NCBI GenBank assembly: GCA_965644295.1
Contig: CBFFRP010000297.1
Span: forward strand, 992,001 to 1,056,000
Reading direction: 5' to 3'
DNA: 64,000 nt
Origin: Paraphysomonas bandaiensis
Lineage: Eukaryota > Protista > Chrysophyceae
A model generated the notes under the pieces. The model ran no database searches. It saw nothing but the letters and a program-made list of their open reading frames with translations, and was not told the origin of the DNA. This document shows positions 3,508-64,000 of this stretch, one piece after another. Numbering within the stretch: the stretch's first letter is position 1; each line of letters starts with the position of its first letter. Made by a program: the position numbers and the translations under genes.

Positions 3508-3656
3508 GATGTATTGATTAAGGGAGGTTGAATTATGAGGATGTAACTAGAGTGATATACCAGCATAACACTGTACACACTGCACGTATCCATACATAAC
3601 ACCACACACCACAATACACCATACGAAAGAATACCATCTAACAGCAACCACAAAAA

Positions 3657-3731
3657 TACATACATACATACATACATACATACATACATACATACATACA
3701 TACATACATACATACATACATACATACATAC
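3657..3731. repeat. (TACA)n microsatellite in a divergent promoter region
   Basis: Perfect tetranucleotide tract between two head-to-head genes. Confidence 0.97.
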
Positions 3732-22708: not shown

Positions 22709-23015
22709 TATTGAACTACAACCAACTCCTACGTGCGTACTTGAAGTTTGGTAAAGTCAATCGCTAGTAGTTATCCTGTATTCTATGTAGCAATGAAATA
22801 CAGAATATACATGACTACAGTATAGGAGTAGCTATTACAAGTATACAAAGAAACTGAAAATATAGTAGCTGTTAAAGATATGATTTGTAGAACAGAATGT
22901 TGATGTTGGTAAATGACGTGGTTCCTAACTCACAGGGCTACAACATCATAAACTTACTATATCTCCTATAATATCAATCAGTCAATATTGCACTAACTAA
23001 AAGCGTAAATTAATA
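22709..23015 (+). repeat. 5' LTR (TATTGA...TTAATA)
   Basis: Direct repeat of 27582-27888. Confidence 0.95.
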
Positions 23016-26000: not shown

Positions 26001-27533
26001 GAAGCTACCAGGAAGGAGGTGCACAAGCTTGAACGAAGGACATGCTGGAAGATTGTCCGAAGGCCGAAACACCGAAAAATCATAAAATCTAAATTGGTCT
26101 TTAAAGTAAAGCGCGACCATCTTGGAAAAATTAAGAAGTTCAAAGTTCGACTTGTGGCGAAAGGGTTTACTCAAGAACAAGGAGTCGACTATAATGAGAC
26201 ATTCTCCCCAGTAGCTAAAGGTGTATCATTTAGGCTAGCACTAGCACTGGCTCTGCGATACAATCTGCAACTCCGTCAACTCGATGTAGAAACGGCATTT
26301 CCGTATGCAGATCTGGACGAAGACGTGTTTATGTCTCCACCTGCAGGAATAGATATTCCACAAGGCTGTTGTTTGAAGATTCTGAAGAGTTTGTATGGCC
26401 TAAAACAAGCGCCTCGAAATTGGCATTCAATGCTGAAGGACAGTATAAAGGCGATGGGGTATAAACAATGTGTTCTTGACCCATGTTTATTTGTACTCAA
26501 GGGTACTGATGATAACCTACATATGATACTTGTGTATGTAGATGATATCATTGTGCTCAGCTCTGACAGCCGTCATATTGAAGAAGTCATCAGCGCCTTT
26601 AAGACTCAATATGCCATGCAAGATATGGGGGACCTTAAGCATTATTTAGGTCTTACCATTGAGCGTCATAATGGCCAGATTAAGTTACATCAGTCTGCAT
26701 ATGCTAAAGATGTTGTGGCCAGATTCAATCACTTGTTGTCAGAAAAGAAGAGACGGTGCAAGGCAACCACACCTCTACCACCTGGCCTAAAGTTGTCCAA
26801 GGATGCAAAAGAGGAAGAAACTCGAAAACAGAGAGAATACGTTGATGCATTTCCCTATCAATCTGTTATTGGTGCCTTAATGTATTTGGCAGTGCATACT
26901 AGACCAGACATGGCATATACAGTAAATCTTCTCTCCCGGTTCACCACAAGACCCACGTACGCTGCATGTCAAGCTGCTCTGCATACTTTATTGTATTTAG
27001 AAAATACAGTTGATCAAGGTATCATATTTCCTAATTTCACAGATGAAGACCCTCTATGTGTGTACTCTGATGCAGATTGGGCCGGAGATCTGGATACATG
27101 CAGATCCACTACAGGGTATATCGTATATCTGTGGGGTGCTCCAATTGCATGGCAGTCCAGACTGCAGCCAACAGTGGCTACGTCGACTATGGAAGCTGAA
27201 TATATGGCTGCATATGCTGCAATTCAGGAGATTGTATGGATACGAGGGGTGATGACAGAGCTCGGAATTCGTGGATTTGAGCTCAGTAAGAATGCGTCTC
27301 CAACAATCTTGAATATGGACAGCAAGAGTGCGATTGATCTAGCTCAGAACCCGGTAAATCATAAACGTTCCAAGCATATTCGGATCAAGTATCATTGGAT
27401 TCGAGAGCAAGTGGGAGGCTGTATCGTCAGGCTGAATCATGTGCCAACGGCAGAGATGACAGCAGACGTGATGACTAAAGCCTTGTCCGAGAAGCTGCAC
27501 TATCAGCATGTGCACACTATGGTATCGCACTAA
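23015..27533 (+). CDS. Copia gag-pol polyprotein with one +1 frame break at ~24631-24650
   Basis: Two CCHC knuckles, protease YLDSG, LWHKRLGH..CNTC zinc finger, integrase ADT/ADGAGE/SERTNR, RT YGLKQ and YVDD, RNase H SDADWA and TMEAEY. Confidence 0.93.
23016..23027 (+). promoter_or_regulatory. Putative primer-binding site TGGCAGCGG (tRNA-Leu-like)
   Basis: Begins with TGG immediately after the 5' LTR and is complementary to the CCGCTGCCA 3' end typical of some tRNA-Leu genes. Confidence 0.55.
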
Positions 27534-36938: not shown

Positions 36939-37073
36939 TAATATATGAGTTTATGAGGTTATCTCATAGTGAGTGTAGTTAACATGATGACACATGCGTT
37001 AATATACATACACATGAACACACATACATATACATATACATGCGGTTACATCTTCCAGACCACACCGACACTC

Positions 37074-37214
37074 ATACATACATACATACATACATACATA
37101 CATACATACATACATACATACATACATACATACATACATACATACATACATACATACATACATACATACATACATACATACATACATACATACATACATA
37201 CATACATACATACA

Positions 37215-37248
<34 letters not shown>

Positions 37249-37530
37249 CATACATACATACATACATACATACATACATACATACATACATACATACATA
37301 CATACATACATACATACATACATACATACATACATACATACATACATACATACATACATACATACATACATACATACATACATACATACATACATACATA
37401 CATACATACATACATACATACATACATACATACATACATACATACATACATACATACATACATACATACATACATACGTACACACATACCTACCTACCTA
37501 CCTACCTACCTACATACATACATACATATA
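37074..37530. repeat. ~400 bp (TACA)n microsatellite followed by (TACC)n
   Basis: About 100 near-perfect units. Confidence 0.98.
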
Positions 37531-49563: not shown

Positions 49564-50095
49564 CATTGTTCGGGGTATAAAGGAGATACTAGCACTTAAT
49601 TTTACATATAGAATGACCTGGCAATTATAATGGCATTACCAGTAATGACTATTACCATTACTGTTCCCCGGTCTTGGTATCTACTCTGTACCAGGGATAG
49701 GGAACAATATATTGTATTGCAATATATTGTACAATATATTGTATTGCAATATATTGTACAATATATTGCAATATATTGTAAAATATATTGATTGGTGGAC
49801 TGGTCAAATATTCCATCAATAGTGTTTCTGTTAATAGAGCTCACAATACTATTGCAATATATTGCAATCAATATTATGATAGTCATATAAGAGAAGATCC
49901 TCAACTGTATGGTGCAAAATATACGCCTCTGTATACAAATATCCGGAAAATAAGAAAAAAAGCCTATTTTTGATGTTATTTTCTATTTTTTATGTATCGC
50001 CAGCTCAAACAGCACTCTACACCTCTCCACATGTATGTACAGTACTTCTCTTAATATAGTATATATATCCTATAGTGACAAGAAGAGACAACTGA

Positions 50096-50833
50096 ATGAT
50101 GAGTGCATACAAGAGTAGGGACATTTACCGCTGTTTTTGGAGTCCGGTCGAAGGTGTCCCGAACAAACACGAGTGTAAAATCTGCGGACGTAAACGACAA
50201 CAGAATATTCGGAATGGATACAACAATCTAAAGGATCACACTTTCTCTCATGATGTGTGGGAGGAGACATTGAAGAGGTATTTACGGGCTGTCTGCACCA
50301 ATGGTCCCATGGATGCTTTTGTTCTGCAGCCTTCAGACAAGGCGAAAACAATTTATGAGTGGGTGGAGTGGATTGTCGAGGAAAATCTTCCATTAAATTT
50401 CTGTGAGAAAATTCTTTGGGTAAGATAACTACAAAAACACTGAAAAAATATATGAGACTGTTGGAACTGAAGCTACGTGATATGATTAAAGATATATTAC
50501 CACCAACATTTGGTCTAGTCATGGACGGTTGGACGTCGGACTCCCACCACTACAGTGCAATATTTGCAACCTTTTGCGACCGAACCAATACTCCGAATTT
50601 GTTATTGTTGTCTTGTAATGTGCAAGAGGATATTGATGACAACACTGTTTTCGATGAAGATCTACCTGATGAAGAGAAATTCTACGGATTCACTGCTGCG
50701 GATTGGTTTGATACTATCGTAGAAGTTCTCAATAAATTTGGAGTTGAGGTTAACGCTGACAATGTTTGCGACATTGTTGAGTTTTATCTTGGAGATAACT
50801 GTGCTACAAACAGAAAATTGGCTACTGATTCTG
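50096..50833 (+). pseudogene. hAT transposase, N-terminal half (BED zinc finger, first two catalytic Asp), frameshifted
   Basis: CKIC..GYNNLKDH, LPLNFCE, MDGWT, GDNCATN; frame break near 50420. Confidence 0.88.
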
Positions 50834-51367
50834 GTAACACCGTATTACTTGTGTGAAATTGTCGAATGTTATAATATATATTAGCGCAGTATTCTTAGTA
50901 TTTGAGATGTTTGAAGTACACATACATGTACAACGTCATACAAAGTCGTAAAATCTGCATAGTATATCGATGGACAATATATAAGCGATCATATTTAAGC
51001 AATGACTTTGTCAACGATACTCTATGACTCAGAGAATCGCTTTCGCAAGCTTTTTGGGAAATACTATTCAATCGGTTGCATAACGTAGTTAAAGCTCATT
51101 GTACTGCAGTATTAATCTGTACTATACGGTACAGAGCAGGGATAGGGAACAATATATTGCAATACTATTGTTAGGTAGCGTTCCATCAATAGTATTGATG
51201 GATTTTTTGAACCGGCCCTACAATACTATTGCAATATATTGTACAATATATTGCAATATATTAGTATGACTAATCAGTAAGTAAACACATCCGTAGTTTT
51301 CATTTTTAGTACTTGCCATATTTTATAAGGTCTAAGGTCACTTGATAATCAAACCCACTACTCTTAA

Positions 51368-52356
51368 CTAATTAAAAGTTTCCTCATACTCATCCTCTGA
51401 GCCATCATCGGTGACATCATCATCACCATATTCATTCAATATTGATTGAAATATGCTTGCATCCGGCCACAACTGTCGGTTAGCTTTCAGAAACAACAGC
51501 ATATTAAGTGTAGTAGGATGCATACGTTTGCGCAACACTGATATAATCAGTTTTGCTGCGCTGAACAGGCGTTCACACGTATTGGAAGTACATACTACAT
51601 GACTCGTGCACCTGTACTTAGATATATTTCAACTTTTCGCTTCTTAAGTTTTTGAGCTGATTGAAGAATTTTTTCCGCATAGCCAACTTCAGCTTCATCA
51701 TCCTCTGTATTGTTGCAATAATCACTGTCTGAACGGAGATATATTCTAACAGCATCTTTCTCAGATCTTGTCAAGTCCAATTCTTCGCCTGCTTGGAGTT
51801 TTGCAATTCCATTCTCGAAATTCGGATCATTAACAATGGGACTGTTTTTCTGTAAAGCAGATAGTGGATACTTTGGCCTAAAGTCCCTCAATAAGCCATC
51901 AAATATGTTCCGGCATTCATAAAGATTCACTTGACTTGATCCTCCAGTTTGAAGCAATTTCGAGACGCTTTCAAACTTCCTCAGGTCGTCTACAAGGGCG
52001 ATTATTTCGGTATTCTGTCGAGGAGTAGGAATCATATCAGTAACTGCAAGCGGTAAGTCTTCAATTTTTAATACATGATCTTTTATACGCATCCACTTTA
52101 CGAGAACCTGAAACATAGAAGACCATCTTGTGACATTTACCCTTTCTGGTAGCAGACTGGTTTGGCCACGTAGCAATGCAGCATTCTTAATCTGCTTCAA
52201 CTTCCCCATTAGTAGGTCTACTTTGCGAATAAGAGGCCTAATGCCTTCGTCAGATCTTGTCACATCTCCTTGGTTATTCCTCTTCTCTTTGCTGCCAATG
52301 AGTTCATTGACAGCGAGATTTAGTCGGTGAGATGCACATCCAACTAGGGGTACCAC
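51368..52356 (-). pseudogene. hAT transposase, C-terminal half (CxxH, TRW, dimerisation domain), frameshifted
   Basis: GCASHRLNLAV, NVTRWSS, TSNTCERLFS...LNMLLFLKANRQLW; frame break near 51620. Confidence 0.9.
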
Positions 52357-52371
52357 TTTGTTGGTTTCTTA

Positions 52372-53726
52372 CTATATATCACTACGCCCAGGCCCAGTAA
52401 GCTTCATCTCTACTAGTAGAACATGACACCTATCGCCAGAACCAGGGATTATCGTCAAGAGACTCTCTCCAAATACTTCAGCACCATCATGTCGATCCAG
52501 CGTTTCGTTGTCACCGTTTACAGAAATGCAGGCAGATCCCTCTATCATGAGAAGATATCCCTGCCTTTTTACGATAACATATCAGAGGTTTCACAGCAAC
52601 TATATATCTCGACAAACACAGTGCGTATTGATGTCGTTATATTTTTCGGATGTACTTACCTTCCGCTCGAAAGTTGCATTGTTACTTTTTCATCTTTCGA
52701 TATTTCTGTAACATATATATTTGTATCCTGATTTATTTTGATAGGGGTTTCAGCTGGTGATCCTACATCGGACACCATATGATGCCTATGAAGTACCTCA
52801 AAGATGAGAGTAAATAGGAAAAGAAGCACTGTACCATTTATTAGTTCTCAATGAGGAGTCTCCCGCAGCAGACCCATAGTTAGGTGTTAACCCTCGCGTG
52901 CGAGTGTTGATCCATATCTGGATGAATCGCAAAGGTTGCGTCTCATGCAGATTATGCTCGCTATGAACCACGCCTCTGCCAGCAGTCTGTACAATACATT
53001 TACAGTCTTAGTTTCACAGTACGACTAATCATGACTGATGAGCTGACTACCATAAACTGTATGTCCCCACGTGTAAGAGTTTCCTCTGTTCCCATTGAAT
53101 CCTTGTGCGACAGGAAACCGTCAACAATGTAGGTACAGATCTCAACATCTCGATGAGGATGTTCTCCTGCAAAGTATACAGTCGAATAAAACAGCAAATA
53201 AACAGCATCGAACTTCACGTCATCATATACATATATACTTATAAGGGTATTTACCGAATCCACGACACGGCTGTACGAGATCATCATTCATGACTCGTAA
53301 CACTCCAAATCCCATATTGTTAGGATTCGAATATTCCGCAAATGAGAAATGAAATCTGCTTTTAAGCCCTACAGAGACATATGGTTATATAGTGCTATGC
53401 GTATAGCTCTGTGTATAGTTATATATGTGTGTGTCGTTGTATGTATATAGAGTCATATGTATGTATAGTTCAGTGTGTAGATATGTATATGTATAGTTAT
53501 GTATACAGTTATATGTATGTGTGTGTATGTGTGTGTGTGTGTGTGTATGTGTGTGTGTGTGTATGTATGCGTACAGTTCTTGTTAGTCCAGTGGGGGTTC
53601 GAAGGCTCATTGGGAGGGTTACCAAAATAAGAGGGAGGGGGCTCAGATACACCTGAAAGAGGTTATGGATGAGGTGATGTAGAGAGGGGAGATACCGAGT
53701 ATGGTAGATGGGATTTTACGGATCAT
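52372..53726 (-). CDS. Pirin-family cupin (YhhW-like), multi-exon
   Basis: WLKSRFHFSFAEY, FGVLRVMNDDLV, GFGEHPHRDVEICTY, HKDSMG, MTAGRGVVHSE, FIQIW. Stop at 52372. Confidence 0.92.
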
Positions 53727-53922: not shown

Positions 53923-54076
53923 ACATACGTACATACATACATACATACATACATACATACATACATACATACATACATACATACATACATACATACATAC
54001 ATACATACATACATACATACATACATACATACATACGTACATACATACATACATACATACATACATACATACATAC
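53923..54076. repeat. (TACA)n microsatellite upstream of pirin, abutting the viral element
   Basis: About 38 near-perfect units. Confidence 0.97.
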
Positions 54077-54084
54077 TGTGGCAT

Positions 54085-54266
54085 GAAACTCCTAGTTTTA
54101 GGGCTGGGAGTTTCTTTCCTTCGGGAAACGTGGGGTTTCCCTTCAGGATACGGTAGTCTAGTGACACACAAGCAGGGGGAAGGGAAACGGACGCTCTGTG
54201 CCGCTTAGGCATCCCTCCTGAGCCGGGAGGCTCTTCGTATAGTTATAAAACATTCGTTTTATAACT
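54085..54266. other. Cluster of stem-loops at the viral terminus
   Basis: At least five inverted repeats, including TTTCC-TTCG-GGAAA, GTTTCCCTTC/GAAGGGAAAC and AGTTATAAAAC-ATTC-GTTTTATAACT. Confidence 0.75.
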
Positions 54267-54653
54267 CTTCCTTTTCACTCTAAGTATATAATTAATACTA
54301 TACTTTAAATACTATACTTTAAATACTAATATTAATAATCTATACTTTAAACTGTTTTATAATACTATATACTTTAAATAATAATATTTCTAATTTATCC
54401 ACTTTATACAATGAAAAGTAACACACCTGACAACATGGATAAAATGGATAATATTTTAAAGGATAATAAAAAAGTTATAAAAATAGTTTTGAAATTGAAA
54501 AATCCACCCAATCTATCCAGCATGAATAAGAAGAGAAGGAAGACAACTTCTAGATCTTCAAAAGACTAAAGAGTGTGTCGAATGTGAAAAAGTGATAACG
54601 ATTATAAAGCACACTCACACGCAAAAAACAATATACAAAATGGAACAGAGAGT

Positions 54654-55070
54654 TTATATGTCTACTTTTACATTCTCTCTATAGACTGTTATAACATTGC
54701 TTCTTTCATTGAGAACTTGTTTCTTTAGTTTCTTTGGTTTCTTGTCAGTTTCTTTCTTGATTGCTTCTTTTACTTTCGTTTTATCATTAAGACAAGGAAC
54801 AGTGTTTATATAGTGCTTTAACTTTTCAATTGCTTCATCTTTTGATTTAAACTCTTCAATAATTACCATGTTACAACGCTTAACACCTTTTAAACTGAAT
54901 AATTTGAATACTGGATGTGCAAAATCTCCGTTTTTGTCATAACGATGCGTCATATACCTCTTTTTTAGGTAGAAATAATAAAATTTATAAGATTTTTTTG
55001 TTGATACTCCAAAATAGCAGTTTTTTGAGTTTCTATGACCTTGATATTGAATTCTATAGATAACATACAT
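54654..55070 (-). CDS. GIY-YIG-like endonuclease
   Basis: N-terminal VIYRI...YFGVS and a downstream helix ending CLN. The usual catalytic Arg and Glu are not clearly placed. Confidence 0.55.
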   Translation of the reverse strand: MYVIYRIQYQGHRNSKNCYFGVSTKKSYKFYYFYLKKRYMTHRYDKNGDFAHPVFKLFSLKGVKRCNMVIIEEFKSKDEAIEKLKHYINTVPCLNDKTKVKEAIKKETDKKPKKLKKQVLNERSNVITVYRENVKVDI

Positions 55071-55136
55071 ATATATATACATATGTTAGATAAAAATATT
55101 ACTCTGTTGTTGAGTCAATCTGATATTAACATGAAA

Positions 55137-55592
55137 TTAATGAATATAAGTTTCACTTAATTTATTATTTAGTTTTGCAAATTCAATTCTTTGTTCTTCA
55201 ACACTTTTAATTTGTGATGGTATACATGTAAATACATCAATAATGTCTAAGAAATACAATCCATTTGAATGAAACCATTCCATATTAGCTTTATAAACAG
55301 AATGATGACAACGAAATTTATTATACTTTGAATCTTTTGAAACATAATATTTTCCATTGCTTGCATTATAATTACTTAAATCATCAATTTCAAAAGATTT
55401 TTCTTTATACATTGTCATTGAATCAGATAGTGCACAATATACATATTTGTCATATAAACTTTCATTATTTAAATAGTCTTCAAGAGGTAATATGTATAAG
55501 TAAGAGTTAGAATCAAACATAACATGAGGTGATGTTTTTAAAATTTCTTCATCTTCATTGGAATGAATAATTAATTTGATGCATTTAATCAT
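55137..55592 (-). CDS. Viral hypothetical protein
   Basis: 151 aa ORF preceded by TTATTATATAAG-ATG like the other viral genes. Confidence 0.7.
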   Translation of the reverse strand: MIKCIKLIIHSNEDEEILKTSPHVMFDSNSYLYILPLEDYLNNESLYDKYVYCALSDSMTMYKEKSFEIDDLSNYNASNGKYYVSKDSKYNKFRCHHSVYKANMEWFHSNGLYFLDIIDVFTCIPSQIKSVEEQRIEFAKLNNKLSETYIH

Positions 55593-55644
55593 CTTATATA
55601 ATAATAACTTATATTTTATTTTTAAAAAACTTATTTATAAAATA

Positions 55645-56445
55645 TTACTCTGTTGTTGAGTCGAGACTCCATGTATCTCCCGTTAATCTGAAATTGATAG
55701 TATTGAACATACTATAACCTGCTGATGCGATAACAATCCTTATATATGAATATCTCTTTGTCGTTGTCACTGATTCAGTAAATAAAGTTGAATCTTGAGT
55801 TCCTGGAAATGCGACATCATCTATATAATTCCATGTTGAGCCATCATCAGAGCCCAATATATAACAAGCTTTCATTGTTCTCTCTTGTGGTGTGCTTCTC
55901 TCTTGAGTTGATATAGATGTTAAACGAATCTTATAAGGTAATTGAACTTGAACCCATTCACCGTCGATTGTTTGATTAGTGTCGTAGGTTGTTGAAAAGT
56001 AATAGTTTGTTCCATTGCTACCAATATAATTACCTGTTGTTCCGTCATAAGCTTCACCAGAAGGCATGGTATGTAAAACGCCGTCTCTGTAATTGTCTAT
56101 ACCATTCGGACCACTGTTATATCTGTTATTACCCCAGAATGTATCATCACTGTCATCAAATAGTAAGTTACATGAATTTAAAGGATCGGCTGTTCTATAT
56201 CTACCATATGAAGAACAAATCAAATTATAATCTCCATTAGCGTAAGCAGTTGAACCACTTCCACCAGAATAAGACTTTGTAATGTGAGTGTCAAATACAT
56301 CTTGACCGTTAAAAGCAGTTGGAAGACCTGTAAACGATGTAGGGAAAGTAACATTTGTTTGATATTGTGTATTTGTGACACCTCCTTCTGTAACTTTGTA
56401 TTTGTTGATGTGATTAGCAATGTTGATAATAGAAGATAATGACAT
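55645..56445 (-). CDS. Discoidin/F5-8 type C (galactose-binding-like) domain protein, candidate receptor-binding virion protein
   Basis: LFDDSDDTFW, GEWVQVQLP, ILGSDDGSTW, YSYIRIV. Confidence 0.78.
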   Translation of the reverse strand: MSLSSIINIANHINKYKVTEGGVTNTQYQTNVTFPTSFTGLPTAFNGQDVFDTHITKSYSGGSGSTAYANGDYNLICSSYGRYRTADPLNSCNLLFDDSDDTFWGNNRYNSGPNGIDNYRDGVLHTMPSGEAYDGTTGNYIGSNGTNYYFSTTYDTNQTIDGEWVQVQLPYKIRLTSISTQERSTPQERTMKACYILGSDDGSTWNYIDDVAFPGTQDSTLFTESVTTTKRYSYIRIVIASAGYSMFNTINFRLTGDTWSLDSTTE

Positions 56446-56495
56446 TGTATATATATATATATGTTAGAAATAATTATATAATGTATTATTATATA

Positions 56496-57548
56496 ATGAG
56501 TATTTATCCAAAGCCGAAACCTTCAAATGGAGTGTTCAATCCTTCAAATTACACATATATAAAAGATAGCATTGTTGATATTGACTTAACAGGATACATT
56601 CAAAAGAGTGGAGATGTTATGAGTGGAACACTTGTTACACCATCTTTAAACTTATATGGAGATGGACAATTGTCATTCAATGATAACTCAATACAAACAA
56701 CAGCAATGACAGATAGTTTGAAAGCAGATATTGAAACTAGCAAAACAAAGACAACTAATCTAGCTTATGATGGAACGAATACATCAATCTCTGGAAGTGT
56801 AGAAGTATCAAAAATAATATTTCCTGATTCAAGTGAACAAACTGTAGCATTCACAAATGGATTGAAAACGACATATGATAACTATGAAACAAACAAACAA
56901 GATTTAATAACATCAGGAAACAGAATAGATTGTAGTTTGATAGGAAATGGACTAATAACAAATAATGAGTTAGATAAACTAAACAATGTTTCATCAAATA
57001 TTCAAAATCAATTGGATGCTTTAGGACATGGACTAGGAAGTATATCAAAAACTTATGAATTTGACAAAGGTGAAATGATAGGTTATAATTCAACGAATAT
57101 GACTAATGGTAATATATCTGGAATAGTAAGCGTTGGATCTGGTGTTTTATATGCATCACATAATCCAACTCACACATCAGAATATAATATATTAGCCCCA
57201 TATATTCCGCCTGTTGATGATTTCTTTGATTCATTCGGATATATAAAAAAGTTAGGTAGATATTTAGTTATTCATCAATGGGAATTAGGAACACTTGAAT
57301 CTATAAATCATTTCTTTACTCACATTGAATTACATAAAAATGATGTTTTGCATAAGAAGTCTCGGGTATCGGGTGAACACTGGAATTCTAATCGTGGTTC
57401 TATTGAATACATCACTGGTGAAACTACATTTTATATTACAGTGGATGAGTTATCAACATATTCACTATTCTTTAAGACTGATTATGATTTTGACGGTGCA
57501 AACAGTGATACAGTTTTAAAATCAACTATAGAGATAGTTCAAATATAA
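56496..57548 (+). CDS. Fibre/spike-like virion protein
   Basis: N-terminal MSIYPKP...VFNPSNY, fibre-type YIQKSGDVMSGTL, repeated F.D.S.QT.A, SSNIQNQLD, and a beta-rich C-terminal head. Confidence 0.62.
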   Translation: MSIYPKPKPSNGVFNPSNYTYIKDSIVDIDLTGYIQKSGDVMSGTLVTPSLNLYGDGQLSFNDNSIQTTAMTDSLKADIETSKTKTTNLAYDGTNTSISGSVEVSKIIFPDSSEQTVAFTNGLKTTYDNYETNKQDLITSGNRIDCSLIGNGLITNNELDKLNNVSSNIQNQLDALGHGLGSISKTYEFDKGEMIGYNSTNMTNGNISGIVSVGSGVLYASHNPTHTSEYNILAPYIPPVDDFFDSFGYIKKLGRYLVIHQWELGTLESINHFFTHIELHKNDVLHKKSRVSGEHWNSNRGSIEYITGETTFYITVDELSTYSLFFKTDYDFDGANSDTVLKSTIEIVQI

Positions 57549-57594
57549 AAGAATCAATATATTTTTCTAAACAATGTTATATATACAGTATAAG

Positions 57595-58290
57595 ATGGTT
57601 GATATAGTAAATTTTTATGAATTAGATGAAGTGAAAGCCTTTCAAACAGAAGCTATCAATCCTAACTATGGAAAACATGGAATCAAAGTTCCTTTCAGAA
57701 TGTTAATCGTTGGAGCATCTGGAGCAGGTAAGTCGAATATCGTTTTGAATATGATTCGTGTTATGAATAATACTTTTCACAAGATTATATTATACACAAG
57801 GAACAAGAAGGAGCCATTATACGAATACTTAGAAAGTAAGTTAGAAGACAATGATGACTTATTTGAAGTTCACGAAGGTTTAGAGCATTTAAGAAAAGTG
57901 AATATTGACAAAGAGTATTTCGGACAAACATTAATAATATTTGATGACTTAGTCAATGAGAAGAATCAAGATATAATAGGTGAAATGTTCTTAAGAGGTC
58001 GTAAAATTGGTGTATCATTGATATATTTGACTCAGAAATACGCACAAGTTCCAACACTAGTTAGAGAGCAATTAAACTATTTGATAATGAAGAAGATATC
58101 AGGCAAAAGAGATATAACATATTTGATGAGAAATCACGCTTTAAGTGGAGATATTAAACAACTTTTAAATATGTATAAGTATTGTGTAAACAAAGACATA
58201 ACGAACTTTTTATTAATTGATTTAGAAGCACCAAGTGAGAGAGCATTCAGAAAGAACTTTAATGAAATCTTGAATATAGAAGCATTTTAA
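57595..58290 (+). CDS. A32-like (FtsK-HerA) DNA packaging ATPase
   Basis: PFRMLIVGASGAGKS (Walker A), LIIFDD (Walker B), RGRK arginine finger, LTQ motif. Confidence 0.93.
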   Translation: MVDIVNFYELDEVKAFQTEAINPNYGKHGIKVPFRMLIVGASGAGKSNIVLNMIRVMNNTFHKIILYTRNKKEPLYEYLESKLEDNDDLFEVHEGLEHLRKVNIDKEYFGQTLIIFDDLVNEKNQDIIGEMFLRGRKIGVSLIYLTQKYAQVPTLVREQLNYLIMKKISGKRDITYLMRNHALSGDIKQLLNMYKYCVNKDITNFLLIDLEAPSERAFRKNFNEILNIEAF

Positions 58291-58324
58291 TAAAATATAA
58301 TGTGTTTGTATTATATATAGAAAC

Positions 58325-59725
58325 ATGTTATCAAGTTATGAAATAAGAAGATTAGGTCCAAAGGAAAGAGAAAGATATTTCAGACAAAAGGAACTAAACA
58401 ACTTAAAGATATTATCAGACATCAGCAAGAACATATCAGAAGAGCAACAACACATAGAAGAAGGCATTATACCAGAAGTGAGAGATAAAAGAACACTAGC
58501 AGAGAAAGAAGAAGATAATATATTACAATTACAGACAGCACAAAAGAACGCTTTAAAGTTGTTTAAAAATGACGGTAATGAAGCACAAGACTTTTTAAAT
58601 AAATTAAAGAACAGTAGATATAACGATTTTGTTGACTTTAACAAGTATTTTTTAGGCATGTTTTCTTCTTTATCTAATAAGGTTGGTAAACTGCGAGCAC
58701 AAGAAATGTATGATTTTGTTTATAGATATCTTGAAAATCAAAAGAACACATCAGGAATACGAAATCTTCTATCATCAGAACAAGAAGTTGATGCAATAAT
58801 ACGACATTTAACTAATATAGCAGGTATATCAAGAGAAACTAGAAGTGATTTAAATGATAGATTAGAAGCATTACAACAAACTTTAGAATCATTGATTCAG
58901 AAATATGGAGAAAGCAAAGTGAAACAAGCTTATGAAATGTCAGATTTACCTGTCTTTGATGAAGAAGTGGATGAAGACACAATAGTTCCAGAAATACAAA
59001 AGATAGATAAAAAGTCATTAGAAAGTTTCTCAAGACAATTTCAAAGTTATCCAGTTATTGACGATTACGAAGATTCAATATCATCAATAACGAATCAAGA
59101 TGAAGATTTCAGTATTGAAAATGATGATTATGACTTTAGCTTTGACGATGAAAGAGAAGATGATGATGATGATGAAGAGAAAGAAGAGAAAGAGATAAAA
59201 GAAGTAAAAGAAGTATATGATGAAAAGACACAACGAGCCATAAATAAAGTAAACTCAATGACATTAGAAGAAATGAAAGCAATGTCAGGTAATGTAATAA
59301 GATTGATAAGAATATTGAATCAAGGAGGAGATGATTACAGAGATAGTTCAACACGAGTTAATAAAGATGATTTAAACGCTTACAATGAAGTTGCACCACT
59401 CTTTACACCAAGAGGAGGAAAAGCAACTGGAATACAAAAGAAGAGTTTATACAAATTTGTCAAAGACTCAGGAATCAAAACGATAGATAGAGTATTAAGA
59501 GAAAGAATAGCAGAACAAGAAGGAGATGTCGCAGAAGCAAAACAACCGAGAGAACCGAGAAAATTAATTACACGAACTATACACGATATAAGAAGAGAAG
59601 AAGAAGAGAAGAAAAGAAAAGACGATGAAGATGAAGTAGAAGAAGAACCACAAGAAGGTGTTTTAAAAGAAGGTAACGGATTGATGATTAGAAAGATAGG
59701 AAGTATGAAAGTTAGATTCGGTTAA
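58325..59725 (+). CDS. Viral hypothetical protein, highly charged
   Basis: 466 aa intact ORF within the morphogenesis block. Confidence 0.78.
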   Translation: MLSSYEIRRLGPKERERYFRQKELNNLKILSDISKNISEEQQHIEEGIIPEVRDKRTLAEKEEDNILQLQTAQKNALKLFKNDGNEAQDFLNKLKNSRYNDFVDFNKYFLGMFSSLSNKVGKLRAQEMYDFVYRYLENQKNTSGIRNLLSSEQEVDAIIRHLTNIAGISRETRSDLNDRLEALQQTLESLIQKYGESKVKQAYEMSDLPVFDEEVDEDTIVPEIQKIDKKSLESFSRQFQSYPVIDDYEDSISSITNQDEDFSIENDDYDFSFDDEREDDDDDEEKEEKEIKEVKEVYDEKTQRAINKVNSMTLEEMKAMSGNVIRLIRILNQGGDDYRDSSTRVNKDDLNAYNEVAPLFTPRGGKATGIQKKSLYKFVKDSGIKTIDRVLRERIAEQEGDVAEAKQPREPRKLITRTIHDIRREEEEKKRKDDEDEVEEEPQEGVLKEGNGLMIRKIGSMKVRFG

Positions 59726-59774
59726 TATTCAATAGTATAAAATATAATATAATATAATAGTATATTATAGAATA

Positions 59775-60233
59775 ATGACAATTAAAAAGAACTATAAAAA
59801 GTTTTACAAACTACAAATCAATGTAATGAAGCTATTAGACAATAAGTTAATGATATTGTATGAGACAGGGTCACCTTTCAGCAGATATATAAAGACACGA
59901 ACAATAAGTCCAGAGTTTGCGAGTGTGTTGTTAAACTTGATAGACACAAATGAACTGAACTATGAAACGATAAAACGACTAACAGAAGAAGAGAAGAAGT
60001 TATTTAACATCATAATGACACAATCAGGAGCAAAGACAGAATTGAAATACAAAGAACCAGAACTAACGGAAGAAGATCTGTTAAAGAGATTTGAACTATT
60101 ACAAGCTAGTATAAGAGCAGGAAACAATAGCAATGAAGTATTAAAAGAAGGAATAGACATATTGAAAAGATTAAATAAGTTAGGTAGAATTGATGATGAC
60201 CAGTTAACAGAAATTTTGGAGAGTTTAGAATAA
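59775..60233 (+). CDS. Small viral protein with an RFELLQASIRAGNN motif
   Basis: Intact ORF. The motif resembles, from recall, one in Polinton/adintovirus-type small proteins; function unknown. Confidence 0.7.
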   Translation: MTIKKNYKKFYKLQINVMKLLDNKLMILYETGSPFSRYIKTRTISPEFASVLLNLIDTNELNYETIKRLTEEEKKLFNIIMTQSGAKTELKYKEPELTEEDLLKRFELLQASIRAGNNSNEVLKEGIDILKRLNKLGRIDDDQLTEILESLE

Positions 60234-60270
60234 CTATTTGTAAAATTATTATATAAGTAAATATTATATA

Positions 60271-61158
60271 ATGTCAGACACAAATTATAACTACAACACA
60301 ATTATATTAAACAAAAACAATATAGTTCCAGGTTCAAAGAATTCAGTGTTCAAATATACTTTCAATCAATCATTAAGACTAAACAATTGTTCACTAGCTA
60401 TTCAAAGTATCAATATGTATTACAGTTGGTTTAACATATCAGACTATTTCAGAAATAACAAGTTTTCATATGTATGGTTTGACAATGCAGGAGAATTGAA
60501 CACAACTATAGATATAACAATTCCAGACGGCTATTATACAGTTGAATTATTGAATAAGTTTTTACAATCTGAATTAGAGAAAAGAGGTCATTACTTGGTT
60601 CAAGAAAGCACGGGAGATTTTGCTTATCACATAGAATTCATTTCAAATGTAAGTTATTATTCAGTTCAATTGAATGTGTATGCAATGATGACAGAAGCTC
60701 AAGCAGGGACAGATTTCGTTAAAGGTTCAGAGACTTGGTCTTATCCTTCAACAGCCACAACACCTCAACTAGTTGTTTCAAATTCTTCTTCATTTGGAGA
60801 CTTAATAGGATATTCTAATGGAACATATCCATCAACAGCGTCAAGCACAAATACAACTTTTCTGTCAGATAAGACGCCGAATATGACGCCTGTTAGCTCT
60901 ATAAATGTCGTTTGTTCAATGACAACTCAAAACGGCTTTAGTAATCCTGATGGACTGTTATATTCATTTACAAGTGGTAGTGTTGAATTTGGAGGTATGA
61001 TAGACAGAGAACCAAAAACGGAGTCTTTTGTTAAGGTGAGAGATGGTTTATATTCAAGCTTTACAATAGAACTATATGACCAAGACATGAGAAGATTAGA
61101 TATAAGAGACGCTGAAACGGTTATAATGTTAATTATTAAGAGTCCTGATGAAGATTAA
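60271..61158 (+). CDS. Minor capsid (penton) protein, single jelly-roll
   Basis: LAIQSINMYYSWFNIS..NNKF, ITIPDGYYTVELLN, SINVVCS, FTIELYDQ; beta-rich, 295 aa, upstream of the MCP. Confidence 0.82.
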   Translation: MSDTNYNYNTIILNKNNIVPGSKNSVFKYTFNQSLRLNNCSLAIQSINMYYSWFNISDYFRNNKFSYVWFDNAGELNTTIDITIPDGYYTVELLNKFLQSELEKRGHYLVQESTGDFAYHIEFISNVSYYSVQLNVYAMMTEAQAGTDFVKGSETWSYPSTATTPQLVVSNSSSFGDLIGYSNGTYPSTASSTNTTFLSDKTPNMTPVSSINVVCSMTTQNGFSNPDGLLYSFTSGSVEFGGMIDREPKTESFVKVRDGLYSSFTIELYDQDMRRLDIRDAETVIMLIIKSPDED

Positions 61159-61199
61159 AACGATATAGTATATTTTTTTATATAATACTATTATATAAG

Positions 61200-61514
61200 A
61201 TGTCATATTATAAAATGATTGGTGGAAGAATGAGAAGACAAGTTCTTCCTTCATATGAAGAGTTAATACAAGAAGCAACCAAGAAAGAAGATAAGATAAA
61301 AGAAGACAGAAGTGTTCCCGTGATTGTTGAACATAAACAGAAAGTAGAAAACATAAAGAAACCTAATATAAGTTTGAGTGATAAACTGATGAGTATCAAA
61401 GTAAAACCAAGAACGGAAGGTAAAGGACAAGAGAGAACCAAAGATGAATTATTTGAAAGTGTAAACAATGTGTCAATGGAAAGATTAAAGAAATTTGCTA
61501 ATTTAAAAGTATAG
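61200..61514 (+). CDS. Small basic viral protein
   Basis: 104 aa ORF between the mCP and MCP with the viral promoter motif. Confidence 0.7.
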   Translation: MSYYKMIGGRMRRQVLPSYEELIQEATKKEDKIKEDRSVPVIVEHKQKVENIKKPNISLSDKLMSIKVKPRTEGKGQERTKDELFESVNNVSMERLKKFANLKV

Positions 61515-61562
61515 AATAATTTATTATAAAATATTTTATAATCTAAGTGTATATTATACAAT

Positions 61563-63263
61563 ATGGACAAGTTAATAGTTGAACAATCTTTTGAAAAAGC
61601 AGAAGAGAATGTAAGTGACTTTGTGGAGTGGGATTATTCTAAATTGAGTGATTCACAAACTTCAGGTAATTATTCAAGCAATCAAACAATATTTGAAACT
61701 ACTACACTCAGTAACAATGGTAAAATAAGTGATTACACGGATGGATTTATGTCAATGCCAATGGTTGATGTTGTGACAGGTAAAAATGGTGGGAATGACA
61801 TTGACTTTACAGCAGCGCACATAAAGGAGAGTGATTTGTTATTATGCAGGAAGAATTCAAGTTTAAATATGATAGATTCAGTATCTATTCAATATCAAAA
61901 TCAAGCAGGAATTCAAGAGACAAGAAATATTAATCAATACTTAATCTTTAAACAACATTCAGAAATGTCATTAGATGATGAATATGTAAACGGACCAACA
62001 ATAGGATACGCTAAAGACACATCGGATTCTTGGAGTTATGACGAAGCAAATGGTTTAATGAATAATAACAACGCTTTAAATCATTTAAATGGTATTGATT
62101 ACATCAATAAATGCAATAAAGGAATGTATGAAAGACAACAAGTTTTTAGTAAGGTTGTTGATACTGCCAATGCATCTAAGAGAGATTCAGTGTTGGGTGA
62201 TAATGATAAAATTAACAACATGAATCGTAGTCATGTTGTGAATGTATCAGTGAATGGTTCAAAGTATAAAGCTTACTATTATACTTTGATTATTCGTCTT
62301 AAAGATCTTTCAAGTATATTTGAAAAATGCCCTCCTATGAAAGGTGGTCTTTTCAAAATAACAGTAAATTTTAATCAGTGTATATTTAAAGTAACTAAAA
62401 CAGATAATGACACACTATCATTTTCTCCAGCAGACTTTAACGGAAGAGGAACAAACCCCTTGATGGTTTCAAGTTCTCAATATAAAACTTTGATAGGTGC
62501 AGCCAACAACGAATCAACGGCAGGTAATGTAATTTGTGGAGGATACACTATACCAGATGGAACAGAACTTACAATTAGTTGTAACATAGCAAAACCTCAA
62601 TTTTACCCACATAATACACTTAATGTCACACCTTGTAAGGAGCAGAACTGTTTTCTTCACATTCCTTCTTATGTAATGAAACCTGCACTTCAGAAAAGAT
62701 ATTTAGAGAGTCCACAAAAACAAGTTATATATAACGATGTTGTTTTATTTCAACTTTTCAATAAGACAGGTCAAATTAATGAACTCATCACAAATGGTTT
62801 ATCATATGCTAAGAGAATGATTATTTGTCCTTTCATTAGTTCATCAGGCAATGGAACGAATCAAATTCACCCGTTTCAATCACCTTTTACAACTGAACCC
62901 GCAACCTGTAGTCCTTATACCATTCAAAACCTTCAAGTTAAAGTATCATCAACAAATCTATATCCCAATCAAATCAATTATTCATATGATATGTTTATGA
63001 GAGAGCTTAACGGCAAATATGGTGTAAACTCTAACTTAACGACTGGTTTATGTAGTTCAAGAATCAATTTAAAAGACTTCATTAATACATACGGTTATAT
63101 CGTAGTTGATTTAAAACGCAAACACACTGACGACGAAAGCGTTCCTTTATCTATTCAACTTGAATGCAATATAACAAGTCCTAAGCCTCTTGATTTTAAT
63201 ATCTTCATTGAACAGGAGAAATCATTCGGACTTGATGTAGCAACAGGAAGAAGAGTAGATTAA
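61563..63263 (+). CDS. Major capsid protein, double jelly-roll (Polinton-like virus type)
   Basis: 566 aa beta-rich protein in an ATPase-mCP-MCP context, with NYSSNQTIFE, IRLKDL, SPFTTEPAT and YGYIVVDLKR. Confidence 0.82.
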   Translation: MDKLIVEQSFEKAEENVSDFVEWDYSKLSDSQTSGNYSSNQTIFETTTLSNNGKISDYTDGFMSMPMVDVVTGKNGGNDIDFTAAHIKESDLLLCRKNSSLNMIDSVSIQYQNQAGIQETRNINQYLIFKQHSEMSLDDEYVNGPTIGYAKDTSDSWSYDEANGLMNNNNALNHLNGIDYINKCNKGMYERQQVFSKVVDTANASKRDSVLGDNDKINNMNRSHVVNVSVNGSKYKAYYYTLIIRLKDLSSIFEKCPPMKGGLFKITVNFNQCIFKVTKTDNDTLSFSPADFNGRGTNPLMVSSSQYKTLIGAANNESTAGNVICGGYTIPDGTELTISCNIAKPQFYPHNTLNVTPCKEQNCFLHIPSYVMKPALQKRYLESPQKQVIYNDVVLFQLFNKTGQINELITNGLSYAKRMIICPFISSSGNGTNQIHPFQSPFTTEPATCSPYTIQNLQVKVSSTNLYPNQINYSYDMFMRELNGKYGVNSNLTTGLCSSRINLKDFINTYGYIVVDLKRKHTDDESVPLSIQLECNITSPKPLDFNIFIEQEKSFGLDVATGRRVD

Positions 63264-63330
63264 ACAAAAGTTTTTTAACATGATAATATTTAATATAAAC
63301 TAATTATTATCTCAACATAATATATATATA

Positions 63331-64000
63331 ATGCATCAAGTAAAACTCAATCTATCTGAAGCTCAATTAAGAAAGTTATCAAACAAACACAATATACAAG
63401 TTAGACCTGACCAAATCGGCTTCGGCTTTCCAGTTGCTTTATCTGACAAGAACTTAAAAAAACTTGAAAACTCTTACAACAAGTCAAAAGGAATGCGATT
63501 AACATTAGACGATAATGAAATTGAAGGTGGTAATCTAAAACAAAACATCAAAAAAGCTTTCAATAAGACTAAGAAACAAGTTAAAAAGACATTCAAAGAC
63601 CCAAACTTAGGAAGAAAGATTAAGAACACATCAAGAAAAGTTAAAAACACTGTCAATGATTTTGCTGTTGTTGGTGATTTAGGTATTCCCGTTGTTAGTG
63701 ATTCATATAATCTATTGAATACTACAACCCGTTTAGGTGATAAGTTAGTTAGAAGTGGTGTTGACCATATTGAAGATAGAAAAGATGATAAGAAAAGAAG
63801 TCAATTTGTTGATGATTTCAATGCACTGAGAGAACATGCTAACACTCAATCTTCTGTTCCTCCTCCTCCTCCTCCAACTGAAGGAAGCGGTAATCCTTAT
63901 CTTCCATCAAAGCAAGTAAAGAAAGTTAAAAAGAAACTGACTGGTTCATCATTTAGAACATTAGGTGCTGGAGTAGTAGATTTAGATTACAAAGGAAAGA
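63331..64000 (+). CDS. Partial basic core/internal virion protein (runs off the right edge)
   Basis: Manually translated MHQVKLNLSEAQLRKL...KGMRLTL..IEGG; Lys-rich, with a polyproline run; open to the window end. Confidence 0.7.
   Translation, partial: MHQVKLNLSEAQLRKLSNKHNIQVRPDQIGFGFPVALSDKNLKKLENSYNKSKGMRLTLDDNEIEGGNLKQNIKKAFNKTKKQVKKTFKDPNLGRKIKNTSRKVKNTVNDFAVVGDLGIPVVSDSYNLLNTTTRLGDKLVRSGVDHIEDRKDDKKRSQFVDDFNALREHANTQSSVPPPPPPTEGSGNPYLPSKQVKKVKKKLTGSSFRTLGAGVVDLDYKGK

What the first reader, a model, noticed from the sequence alone, without database searches (positions are those of the whole stretch)
54077..64000. Apparently intact endogenous Polinton-like/virophage-like virus integrated next to host pirin
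Seen: an AT-rich, intron-free block of at least 10 uninterrupted ORFs, including a packaging ATPase, candidate minor and major capsid proteins, fibre- and lectin-like genes and a GIY-YIG-like nuclease, joined directly to intron-containing host DNA. Known: ATPase + penton + double jelly-roll MCP is the morphogenesis module of Polintons, PLVs and virophages. Inference: a recent, possibly reactivatable provirus, perhaps of an undescribed lineage. Replication, integrase and protease genes would lie beyond the window.
Basis: partly seen in the sequence, partly recalled or inferred. Interest (0 to 1): 0.88.

Follow-up and report, generated by a model that had tools for sequence, protein, structure and literature searches.

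The report
Gossevirus provirus beside a microsatellite
This is the left part of a small DNA virus (capsid, vertex and DNA-packaging genes all unbroken) assembled next to an ordinary host gene in a protist genome, most likely a new member of the already described gossevirus group of Polinton-like viruses, which would probably wake up only when a giant virus infects the cell.

Summary
From 54077 to the window edge lies a 30% GC block of 11 unbroken ORFs (host 39% GC). The 566-aa protein folds as a double jelly-roll capsid, the 295-aa protein as a penton, and the 238-aa protein is an A32 packaging ATPase. Related contigs keep the gene order and add a protease plus variable replicase and integrase genes.

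The lineage is probably not undescribed. By eye, capsid, penton, ATPase and two neighbouring genes match the published gossevirus (GKS1) genome GKSPLV8, a group known from chrysophyte and oomycete genomes.

Four runs from four studies hold near-identical pieces amid many variants about 10% diverged, with 27 synonymous, 13 non-synonymous and no stop changes among 40 sites examined. The left arm swaps accessory genes between copies. All 11 genes have TATA within 12 nt of the start codon, suggesting helper-virus transcription.

The junction sits exactly at a 154-bp (CATA)n array. Whether that is targeted insertion, chance or an assembly join could not be tested. The right end, TIRs, TSD, polymerase and integrase lie outside the window, so 'intact and reactivatable' is unproven. 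Verdict: new member of a known kind.

The parts
52372..53726 (-). Host pirin gene with introns, pointing away from the virus (flank, not part of the element)
   Evidence: PF02678 E 1.4e-12 on one exon; exons in three frames; limits read from the sequence
53923..54076 (.). (CATA)n array, 38.5 units, at the host-virus junction
   Evidence: two other CATA arrays of 76 and 456 bp lie in host DNA of the window
54077..54245 (.). GC-rich, hairpin-forming end segment; likely start of the left terminal inverted repeat or origin (inferred)
   Evidence: Fold z -2.19 (+ strand RNA), -3.81 (- strand RNA), -3.07 (- strand DNA). No Rfam match and no tRNA; no match in host part of the window. Contigs in X5 (54164-54641) and X10 (54192-54520) join it to the viral left arm
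54246..54653 (.). AT-rich non-coding left arm with a 14-nt tandem repeat (54294-54351); common breakpoint of variant copies
   Evidence: joints between 54293-54311 and 55585-55607 in X1 and X6
54654..55070 (-). 138-aa divergent GIY-YIG-family protein (start probably the second Met); accessory, absent from many copies; likely inactive
   Evidence: 2 of 6 homologues hit PF01541, one above cut-off. Leu stands where 3 of 5 distant homologues have the Glu of R-E-x-x-W/Y-I; that Glu being catalytic is recalled
55137..55592 (-). 151-aa orphan accessory gene bracketed by an exact 24-bp direct repeat (55093-55116 / 55639-55662)
   Evidence: no Pfam, PHROG or NCBIfam hit; absent from other copies
55645..56445 (-). 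F5/8 type C (discoidin) lectin-domain protein, likely attachment factor
   Evidence: PF00754 E 8.2e-11; homologue in the same inverted position beside the fibre in L003 (34% over 268 aa); also in L012
56439..57548 (+). Fibre-like protein (369 aa; 350 aa from the likelier start at 56496)
   Evidence: Homologous to long ORFs upstream of the ATPase in L002 and L003 and to ORFs of L005 and L012; N-terminus resembles GKSPLV8 orf20 'tail fibre like' by eye
57574..58290 (+). A32-type genome-packaging ATPase (likelier start 57595); Walker A and B motifs present
   Evidence: PF04665 E 2.4e-18; 45-63% identical to ATPases of 6 related loci
58325..59725 (+). 466-aa conserved core protein of unknown function
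   Evidence: N-terminal part conserved in L001, L002, L003, L005, L009; resembles GKSPLV8 orf12 by eye
59775..60233 (+). 152-aa conserved core protein of unknown function
   Evidence: Homologues upstream of the penton in 7 of 8 annotated loci
60271..61158 (+). Penton (minor capsid protein, single jelly roll)
   Evidence: pLDDT 93.5. VIA-align: PBCV-1 capsid chain 8h2i_bG Z 14.2 (rmsd 5.8, 248 aligned), aviadenovirus 8roq_M 12.2, mavirus penton 11.9 (6.8, 242), Sputnik 3j26_N 10.9
61200..61514 (+). 104-aa basic protein between penton and MCP
   Evidence: small ORF at the same place in L003 (listing, no BLAST hit) and GKSPLV8 orf14
61563..63263 (+). Double jelly-roll major capsid protein, gossevirus (GKS1)-like
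   Evidence: pLDDT 88.4, pTM 0.89. Foldseek: mavirus, Sputnik and faustovirus MCP, E about 1e-12. VIA Z 19.1 (rmsd 4.7, 364 aligned) faustovirus MCP and 17.8 (4.0, 401) Sputnik
63331..64000 (+). Basic conserved protein cut by the window edge; followed by the cysteine protease in relatives
   Evidence: Homologues in L001, L002, L003, L012; weak PF00770 hits on the ORF in the matching position in 5 of 5 loci scanned

Best explanation
The block is the left ~10 kb of a Polinton-like virus with unbroken double jelly-roll capsid, penton and packaging-ATPase genes, most likely a gossevirus (GKS1) integrated in a probably chrysophyte-like marine protist as one of many diverged copies, and it likely stays silent until a giant virus supplies transcription. 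Shown: the structural module, its conserved order in relatives, purifying selection among variants, near-identical pieces in four studies, and copy-to-copy gain and loss of genes in the left arm. Inferred: a protease, replicase and integrase follow beyond the right edge; the GC-rich hairpin segment begins a terminal inverted repeat; TA tracts directly before each start codon act as compact late-type promoters read by a helper's RNA polymerase; fibre and discoidin proteins let the virion attach to the host cell by itself; left-arm accessory genes are exchanged by recombination at short shared gene-end and promoter repeats.
For: Folds and Pfam A32. Same order, fibre-ATPase-ORF466-ORF152-penton-MCP-basic ORF-protease, in L002 and L003, and the core of it in L001, L005, L007, L009, L010, L012. 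GKSPLV8 (MCP cluster PC_0014, group GKS1; PMC7805220 Table S2 and S4 rows) shares about 23 of the first ~70 MCP residues and 28 of ~61 penton residues by my eye count, plus look-alikes of ORF466, ORF104 and the edge ORF. Gosseviruses are the one major PLV group with a core cysteine protease and occur in chrysophyte and oomycete genomes. Variants: 27 synonymous, 13 non-synonymous, 0 stop among the 40 sites shown of 712, against 20-27% synonymous expected under neutrality, p<1e-7. TATA lies in the last 12 nt before ATG in 11 of 11 window genes and 38 of 46 genes of relatives. Controls: 52 of 393 ATGs in the element, 5 of 14 guessed host starts, and 23 and 20 of 57 in two more upstream 12-nt windows. 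Integrated PLVs and virophages reactivated by giant viruses are documented (passages).
Against: GKS1 membership was judged by eye and by motifs written after seeing both sequences; one of six motifs did not match the window, and no GKS1 HMM was run. Host taxon was not tested. The helper step has no direct support: known early (AAAATTGA) and TCCGGA motifs are absent, TCTA is in only 4 of 11, and the gene-end hairpin test was negative. The shuffle null is lenient for TA-alternating DNA. This copy is a minority variant, and its MCP has a 4-residue insertion absent from its 6 closest relatives. Nothing spans the junction. Depth of contigs is not a copy number and host depth was not obtained.
Confidence: 0.6

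Rival explanations
1. Same virus, but the join to the pirin flank is an assembly artefact: a free or differently placed viral copy was stitched to host DNA at the (CATA)n array.
For: The junction coincides to the base with a 154-bp array; long CATA arrays cover only 1.3% of the host part of the window. The family is highly repetitive (10907 contigs laid in X1), and such regions are known to misassemble (PMC10120064 passages).
Against: The viral side begins with a distinct non-coding, hairpin-rich segment that independent contigs attach to the left arm, as expected of a true terminus. A join via CATA needs CATA on the viral side too, which would itself imply insertion in such arrays. The ORFs show no frameshifts of the kind false consensus gives.
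Confidence: 0.15
2. A real provirus that replicates without a helper, using host nuclear Pol II like a Polinton or the lytic TsV-N1; the TA tracts are ordinary TATA boxes or a by-product of AT-rich spacers.
For: Its closest annotated relative L002 (MCP 49%) carries rve-chromodomain integrase (E 1.3e-9) and pPolB-like motifs by eye, the Polinton kit. Gosseviruses are placed with Polintoviricetes and are transcribed in chrysophyte cultures. No known helper motif was found.
Against: Spacers are only 34-67 nt and the TA tract peaks at -19 to -4 from ATG, too close for a classical TATA box at about -30 from the start site (recalled).
Confidence: 0.2
3. A truncated or dead copy: the structural genes are open only because the insertion is young, and the right arm is missing or broken.
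For: Right end unseen; minority variant with a private MCP insertion; likely inactive nuclease.
Against: All 10 complete ORFs are open, and the MCP, penton, ATPase and ORF152 match relatives in length; 361-684-bp pieces are identical in runs of three studies.
Confidence: 0.05

Closest known systems
Gossevirus / GKS1 group of Polinton-like viruses, e.g. GKSPLV8 (VC_12, MCP cluster PC_0014; PMC7805220; PMC10120064; bioRxiv 10.64898/2026.06.19.733378)
   Same: MCP of similar length (566 vs 586 aa) with matching motifs by eye; penton with a shared YYSWFNIS...NNKFSY.W stretch; order ATPase - long conserved ORF - penton - small ORF - MCP - basic ORF; protease, lipase-like and fibre genes in relatives; variable replicase and integrase.
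   Different: Marine sub-clade: the window's MCP forms a 3-member clade within a 27-member clade (no published GKS1 sequence in the tree). Fibre lies upstream of the ATPase and the protease after the basic ORF. Left end abuts a (CATA)n array; accessory cassettes swap in the left arm.
GKS1 proviruses of Rhodomonas lacustris (cluster C3) and chrysophytes (PMC12220804)
   Same: Many endogenous copies, lower GC than host, protease, free-standing GIY-YIG genes; discoidin genes are reported in other PLVs.
   Different: There TIRs and TSDs are shown; here only one end is visible. A text search of their TSD table gave 6 rows containing CATA, TATG or ATAC, two of them pure repeat words, so no general CATA targeting.
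Tetraselmis PLVs reactivated by TetV-2 (bioRxiv 10.1101/2025.10.09.676808), Gezel-14T/PgVV (10.1101/2022.07.28.501842), and mavirus/EMALEs (PMC8547959)
   Same: Works like them by inference: integrated small DJR virus with its own fibre and an FA58C-type lectin, AT-rich spacers, conserved structural core with variable replication genes.
   Different: Different MCP group; none of their promoter motifs; no helper known. EMALEs show no sequence-specific integration.
Microsatellite-inserting endogenous nimaviruses (PMC10871703)
   Same: Precedent for DNA viruses whose integrase targets simple repeats ((TAACC)n, (AT)n).
   Different: Unrelated large viruses of crustaceans; shown on many insertions by long reads, against a single junction here.

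Membership tests
Polinton-like viruses (Polisuviricotina morphogenetic module) | Double jelly-roll major capsid protein | tested here: met
Polinton-like viruses (Polisuviricotina morphogenetic module) | Single jelly-roll penton | tested here: met
Polinton-like viruses (Polisuviricotina morphogenetic module) | A32-like packaging ATPase | tested here: met
   PF04665 E 2.4e-18
Polinton-like viruses (Polisuviricotina morphogenetic module) | 14-40 kb genome with TIRs and target-site duplication | not testable with these tools
   Window ends 9.9 kb into the element; no genome held
Gossevirus / GKS1 | MCP in cluster PC_0014 / hit by the GKS1 HMM | tested here: inconclusive
   Strong likeness by eye to GKSPLV8 orf16; 5 of 6 motif patterns match the window; no HMM or alignment with the published sequence was run
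Gossevirus / GKS1 | [quoted passage not shown] | not testable with these tools
   Expected just past the window edge; weak PF00770 hits (E 6.5e-5 to 6.9e-3, one above cut-off) in 5 of 5 relatives scanned
Gossevirus / GKS1 | Stramenopile (or cryptophyte) host | not tested
   Flank is an intron-bearing, gene-dense eukaryote; holders include marine metagenomes; 'chrysophyte-like' is my recall of the host proteins plus the group's published host range
Virophages (Virophaviricetes) | Virophage-type MCP detectable by sequence | tested here: not met
   No Pfam hit to E 0.1; no PDB sequence hit with protein or profile to E 10; only fold-level likeness, 8-10% identity. A language-model search with P0001 listed one cluster with 29% Sputnik-MCP domains at rank 20
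Maverick-Polintons sensu stricto | pPolB plus rve integrase in the element | not testable with these tools
   Outside the window; relatives differ: L002 rve + pPolB-like, L005 and L012 D5 primase-helicase, L007 SF2-like
GIY-YIG nucleases | GIY-YIG motifs with catalytic Arg, Glu, Asn | tested here: inconclusive
   Family link through 2 of 6 homologues; Arg and Asn positions kept, Glu position is Leu (residue roles recalled)

The most novel reading that the evidence does not exclude
A currently circulating marine gossevirus lineage that homes to its host's (CATA)n microsatellites as a safe harbour, runs on a giant-virus helper through TATA-at-the-start promoters, and shuffles an array of attachment and nuclease cassettes at its left end. 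It would be the first microsatellite-targeting Polinton-like virus I could find in print, and the first gossevirus with a route to a helper.
Probability: 0.12. Interest if true: 0.72.

Novelty: new member of a known kind. Interest (0 to 1): 0.38.

Why it matters
Endogenous gosseviruses in chrysophyte-like protists are already described in bulk, so the find itself is ordinary. It matters as a handle. Gosseviruses are the closest protist-virus relatives of animal Polintons, and in the papers I read their lifestyle is undetermined. A high-copy family under purifying selection, held in sequenced organisms and in marine metagenomes, makes helper dependence directly testable. The first chrysophyte giant-virus isolate has been reported (bioRxiv 10.1101/2025.06.17.660233, listing and passages). 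If the CATA junction repeats across copies, it would add target-specific integration to a group reported to insert without sequence preference.

Tried and rejected
IMG/VR scans for MCP relatives: none (3 and 43 pattern hits, 0 confirmed). Terminal 16-mer in IMG/VR: 4 hits, none extending beyond 24 nt, so chance. The terminus has no clear match in the 12 related loci, and no long TIR was seen in the 5 longest.

Terminal segment as a known RNA: no Rfam match there, only microsatellite-driven hits next to it; no tRNA.

Mimivirus-type hairpin rule at gene ends: z<-2 in 2 of 10 window genes, 9 of 66 overall, against 2 of 30 interior controls; rejected. CroV-type TCTA, AAAATTGA and TCCGGA promoters: 4, 0 and 0 of 11.

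PDB sequence searches for the MCP, ORF142 and the L002 polymerase-like protein: nothing. A profile search added 1 protein and no named homologue. No RNA holder was listed, which says nothing on expression. Host single-copy depth was not obtained, so no copy number is given. The supplements of PMC10120064 did not contain the accession prefixes of L001-L003.

Earlier scan findings: nothing for this genome or these proteins; the 8 items concern other genomes and do not bear on this. Literature searches for microsatellite-targeted Polintons, PLVs or virophages (listings only) showed none; the library lacks most subscription papers, and Kapitonov & Jurka 2006 was not held. bioRxiv supplements, including the 2026 GKS1 HMMs, could not be seen and bear on membership.
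Full report
Observation. The stretch 54077-64000 holds 10 complete ORFs and one cut by the edge, is 90% coding, and has 30.3% GC against 39.4% for the rest. The left flank is eukaryotic: an intron-split pirin gene on the minus strand, and further out a site-1 protease, a mitochondrial carrier, an RNA methyltransferase and a copia retrotransposon. The pirin start lies about 350 bp from the junction. The last 154 bp before 54077 are a (CATA)n array. No whole genome is held, so nothing right of 64000 could be read.

Structural module. The 238-aa ORF is an A32 packaging ATPase. The 566-aa ORF has no Pfam or PDB sequence match but 81 homologues among 5289 candidates, none with a functional name. 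Folded on 68 sequences (pLDDT 88.4), it matches mavirus, Sputnik and faustovirus major capsid proteins. The 295-aa ORF (76 homologues of 573 candidates; pLDDT 93.5) has as its six matches at Z 8 or more capsid chains of PBCV-1, an aviadenovirus, mavirus (penton), Sputnik and EhV-201.

Relatives. A metagenome scan gave 11 loci from 72 pattern hits and a genome scan 1 from 28. I annotated 8 of these 12; the other four are under 2.5 kb. L002 and L003 keep the order fibre, ATPase, ORF466, ORF152, penton, MCP, basic ORF, protease, and the others keep most of it; L012 lacks the ATPase and ORF466 on its contig. The protease hit is weak but present in 5 of 5 scanned. Replication and integration genes vary: rve-chromodomain integrase with pPolB-like motifs in L002, D5 primase-helicase in L005 and L012, an SF2-like helicase in L007, and tyrosine-recombinase-like ORFs in L005 and L007. 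The pPolB and recombinase calls are by eye only. This window's own replication module therefore cannot be predicted.

Which group. In Table S2 of PMC7805220 (one part read; rows found) the gossevirus GKSPLV8 has MCP cluster PC_0014. By eye it shares about a third of the first 70 MCP residues, nearly half of the first 60 penton residues, and look-alikes of the ATPase, ORF466, ORF104, the edge ORF and the fibre start. Gosseviruses are described from oomycete and chrysophyte genomes and transcriptomes and have a core protease (PMC10120064 parts 1-3 of 7; PMC7805220 passages; bioRxiv 2026.06.19.733378 parts 1-2 of 5; PMC12220804 passages and sections 13 part 1 and 16). Mosaic replicase modules are general in these viruses (bioRxiv 2026.10.13.758929 part 1 and passages). 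I put gossevirus membership near 0.9, without an HMM test. In a tree of 76 MCPs without published references, the window groups with P0001 and P0002 inside a 27-member clade.

Is the family alive. Of 24 listed runs, 20 hold part of the stretch, from 11 studies, including three coded organisms and marine metagenomes; one may be the source. Laying four runs from four studies gave 10907, 405, 557 and 2709 records. Most differ from the window, but pieces of 361-684 bp are identical in X1, X5 and X6, and 614 bp differ at 2 sites in X10. Summed depth in the core is far above that of the 138-aa ORF in all four runs, which fits a many-copy family, though contig depth is no copy number. Of the 40 variant sites shown (of 712), 27 are synonymous, 13 non-synonymous and none makes a stop. 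Full-length pentons 94-97% identical occur in many assemblies. Against this, the window's MCP has a private 4-residue insertion, in a confidently modelled strand-turn region.

Left arm. Contig joints show copies that go from about 54300 straight to about 55600 (both small ORFs absent), copies without the lectin gene, and copies in which the 138-aa ORF takes the lectin gene's place. In the window an exact 24-bp repeat, made of the lectin gene's last codons and stop, brackets the 151-aa ORF, and the DNA upstream of the 138-aa ORF resembles the lectin-fibre spacer. I infer exchange by recombination at these short shared sequences. The 138-aa ORF is a distant GIY-YIG member, probably without its metal-binding Glu, so a homing role is doubtful.

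Promoters and lifestyle. Spacers are 34-67 nt. TATA lies within 12 nt of the ATG in 11 of 11 window genes and 38 of 46 genes of relatives, above shuffles, upstream windows and guessed host starts (5 of 14). A TA initiator next to the start codon is what I recall of late promoters of cytoplasmic large DNA viruses; I have no citation from a call for this. Other PLVs and virophages are known to use a helper's promoters and to be reactivated by it (passages). None of their motifs is present, and the gene-end hairpin test was negative. Helper dependence is my preferred reading at roughly two to one.

The junction. The first 170 nt are GC-rich and fold better than shuffles, match no Rfam family and are joined to the viral arm by contigs of two other studies. 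Terminal palindromes are reported for other endogenous PLVs (bioRxiv 2026.07.28.741278 section 7). Long CATA arrays cover 1.3% of the host part of the window, so the coincidence is notable. It rests on one junction, however, and targeting, repeat-seeded misassembly and chance all remain. Repeat targeting is known for nimaviruses (PMC10871703 passages), was not found for mavirus-like elements (PMC8547959 passages), and did not appear for PLVs in two listing searches.

Verdict. A real Polinton-like virus, most likely a new marine gossevirus in a many-copy family under purifying selection. It is a new member of a known kind, with two open leads: the CATA junction and the TATA-proximal promoters. 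Interest 0.38.

Noticed in passing
window 23009-27533 (+): Copia-type LTR retrotransposon with long open gag-pol frames in two overlapping ORFs (zinc knuckle, RVT_2 E 5e-59).
   Followed up: no
window 49690-52368: Transposase-like fragments (hAT-like by recall; no Pfam hit) on both strands with repeated ends at 49692 and 51137; one fragment starts right after the pirin stop.
   Followed up: no
window 3656-3731, 37073-37528: Two further (CATA)n arrays (76 and 456 bp) in host DNA, without viral sequence beside them.
   Followed up: partly
L012 1-15234: A gossevirus-like contig sits in a bacterial MAG labelled Crocinitomix, probably misbinned. Its primase-helicase gene is bracketed by inverted repeats (2050-2090 / 4730-4770, 98%) that recur at the contig end.
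   Followed up: partly
L002 16176-21344: Replication module of a 701-aa protein with pPolB-like motifs that no library detects, an rve-chromodomain integrase and a 506-aa helicase-like protein.
   Followed up: partly
run X10 on window 54050-64000: Core depth about 1000-fold above that of the window-type variant, far more than in X1, X5 or X6; could be amplification bias or active replication.
   Followed up: no
L003 8436-8564 and 12673-12836; L005 4821-5012: Long imperfect palindromes in intergenic DNA of relatives.
   Followed up: no
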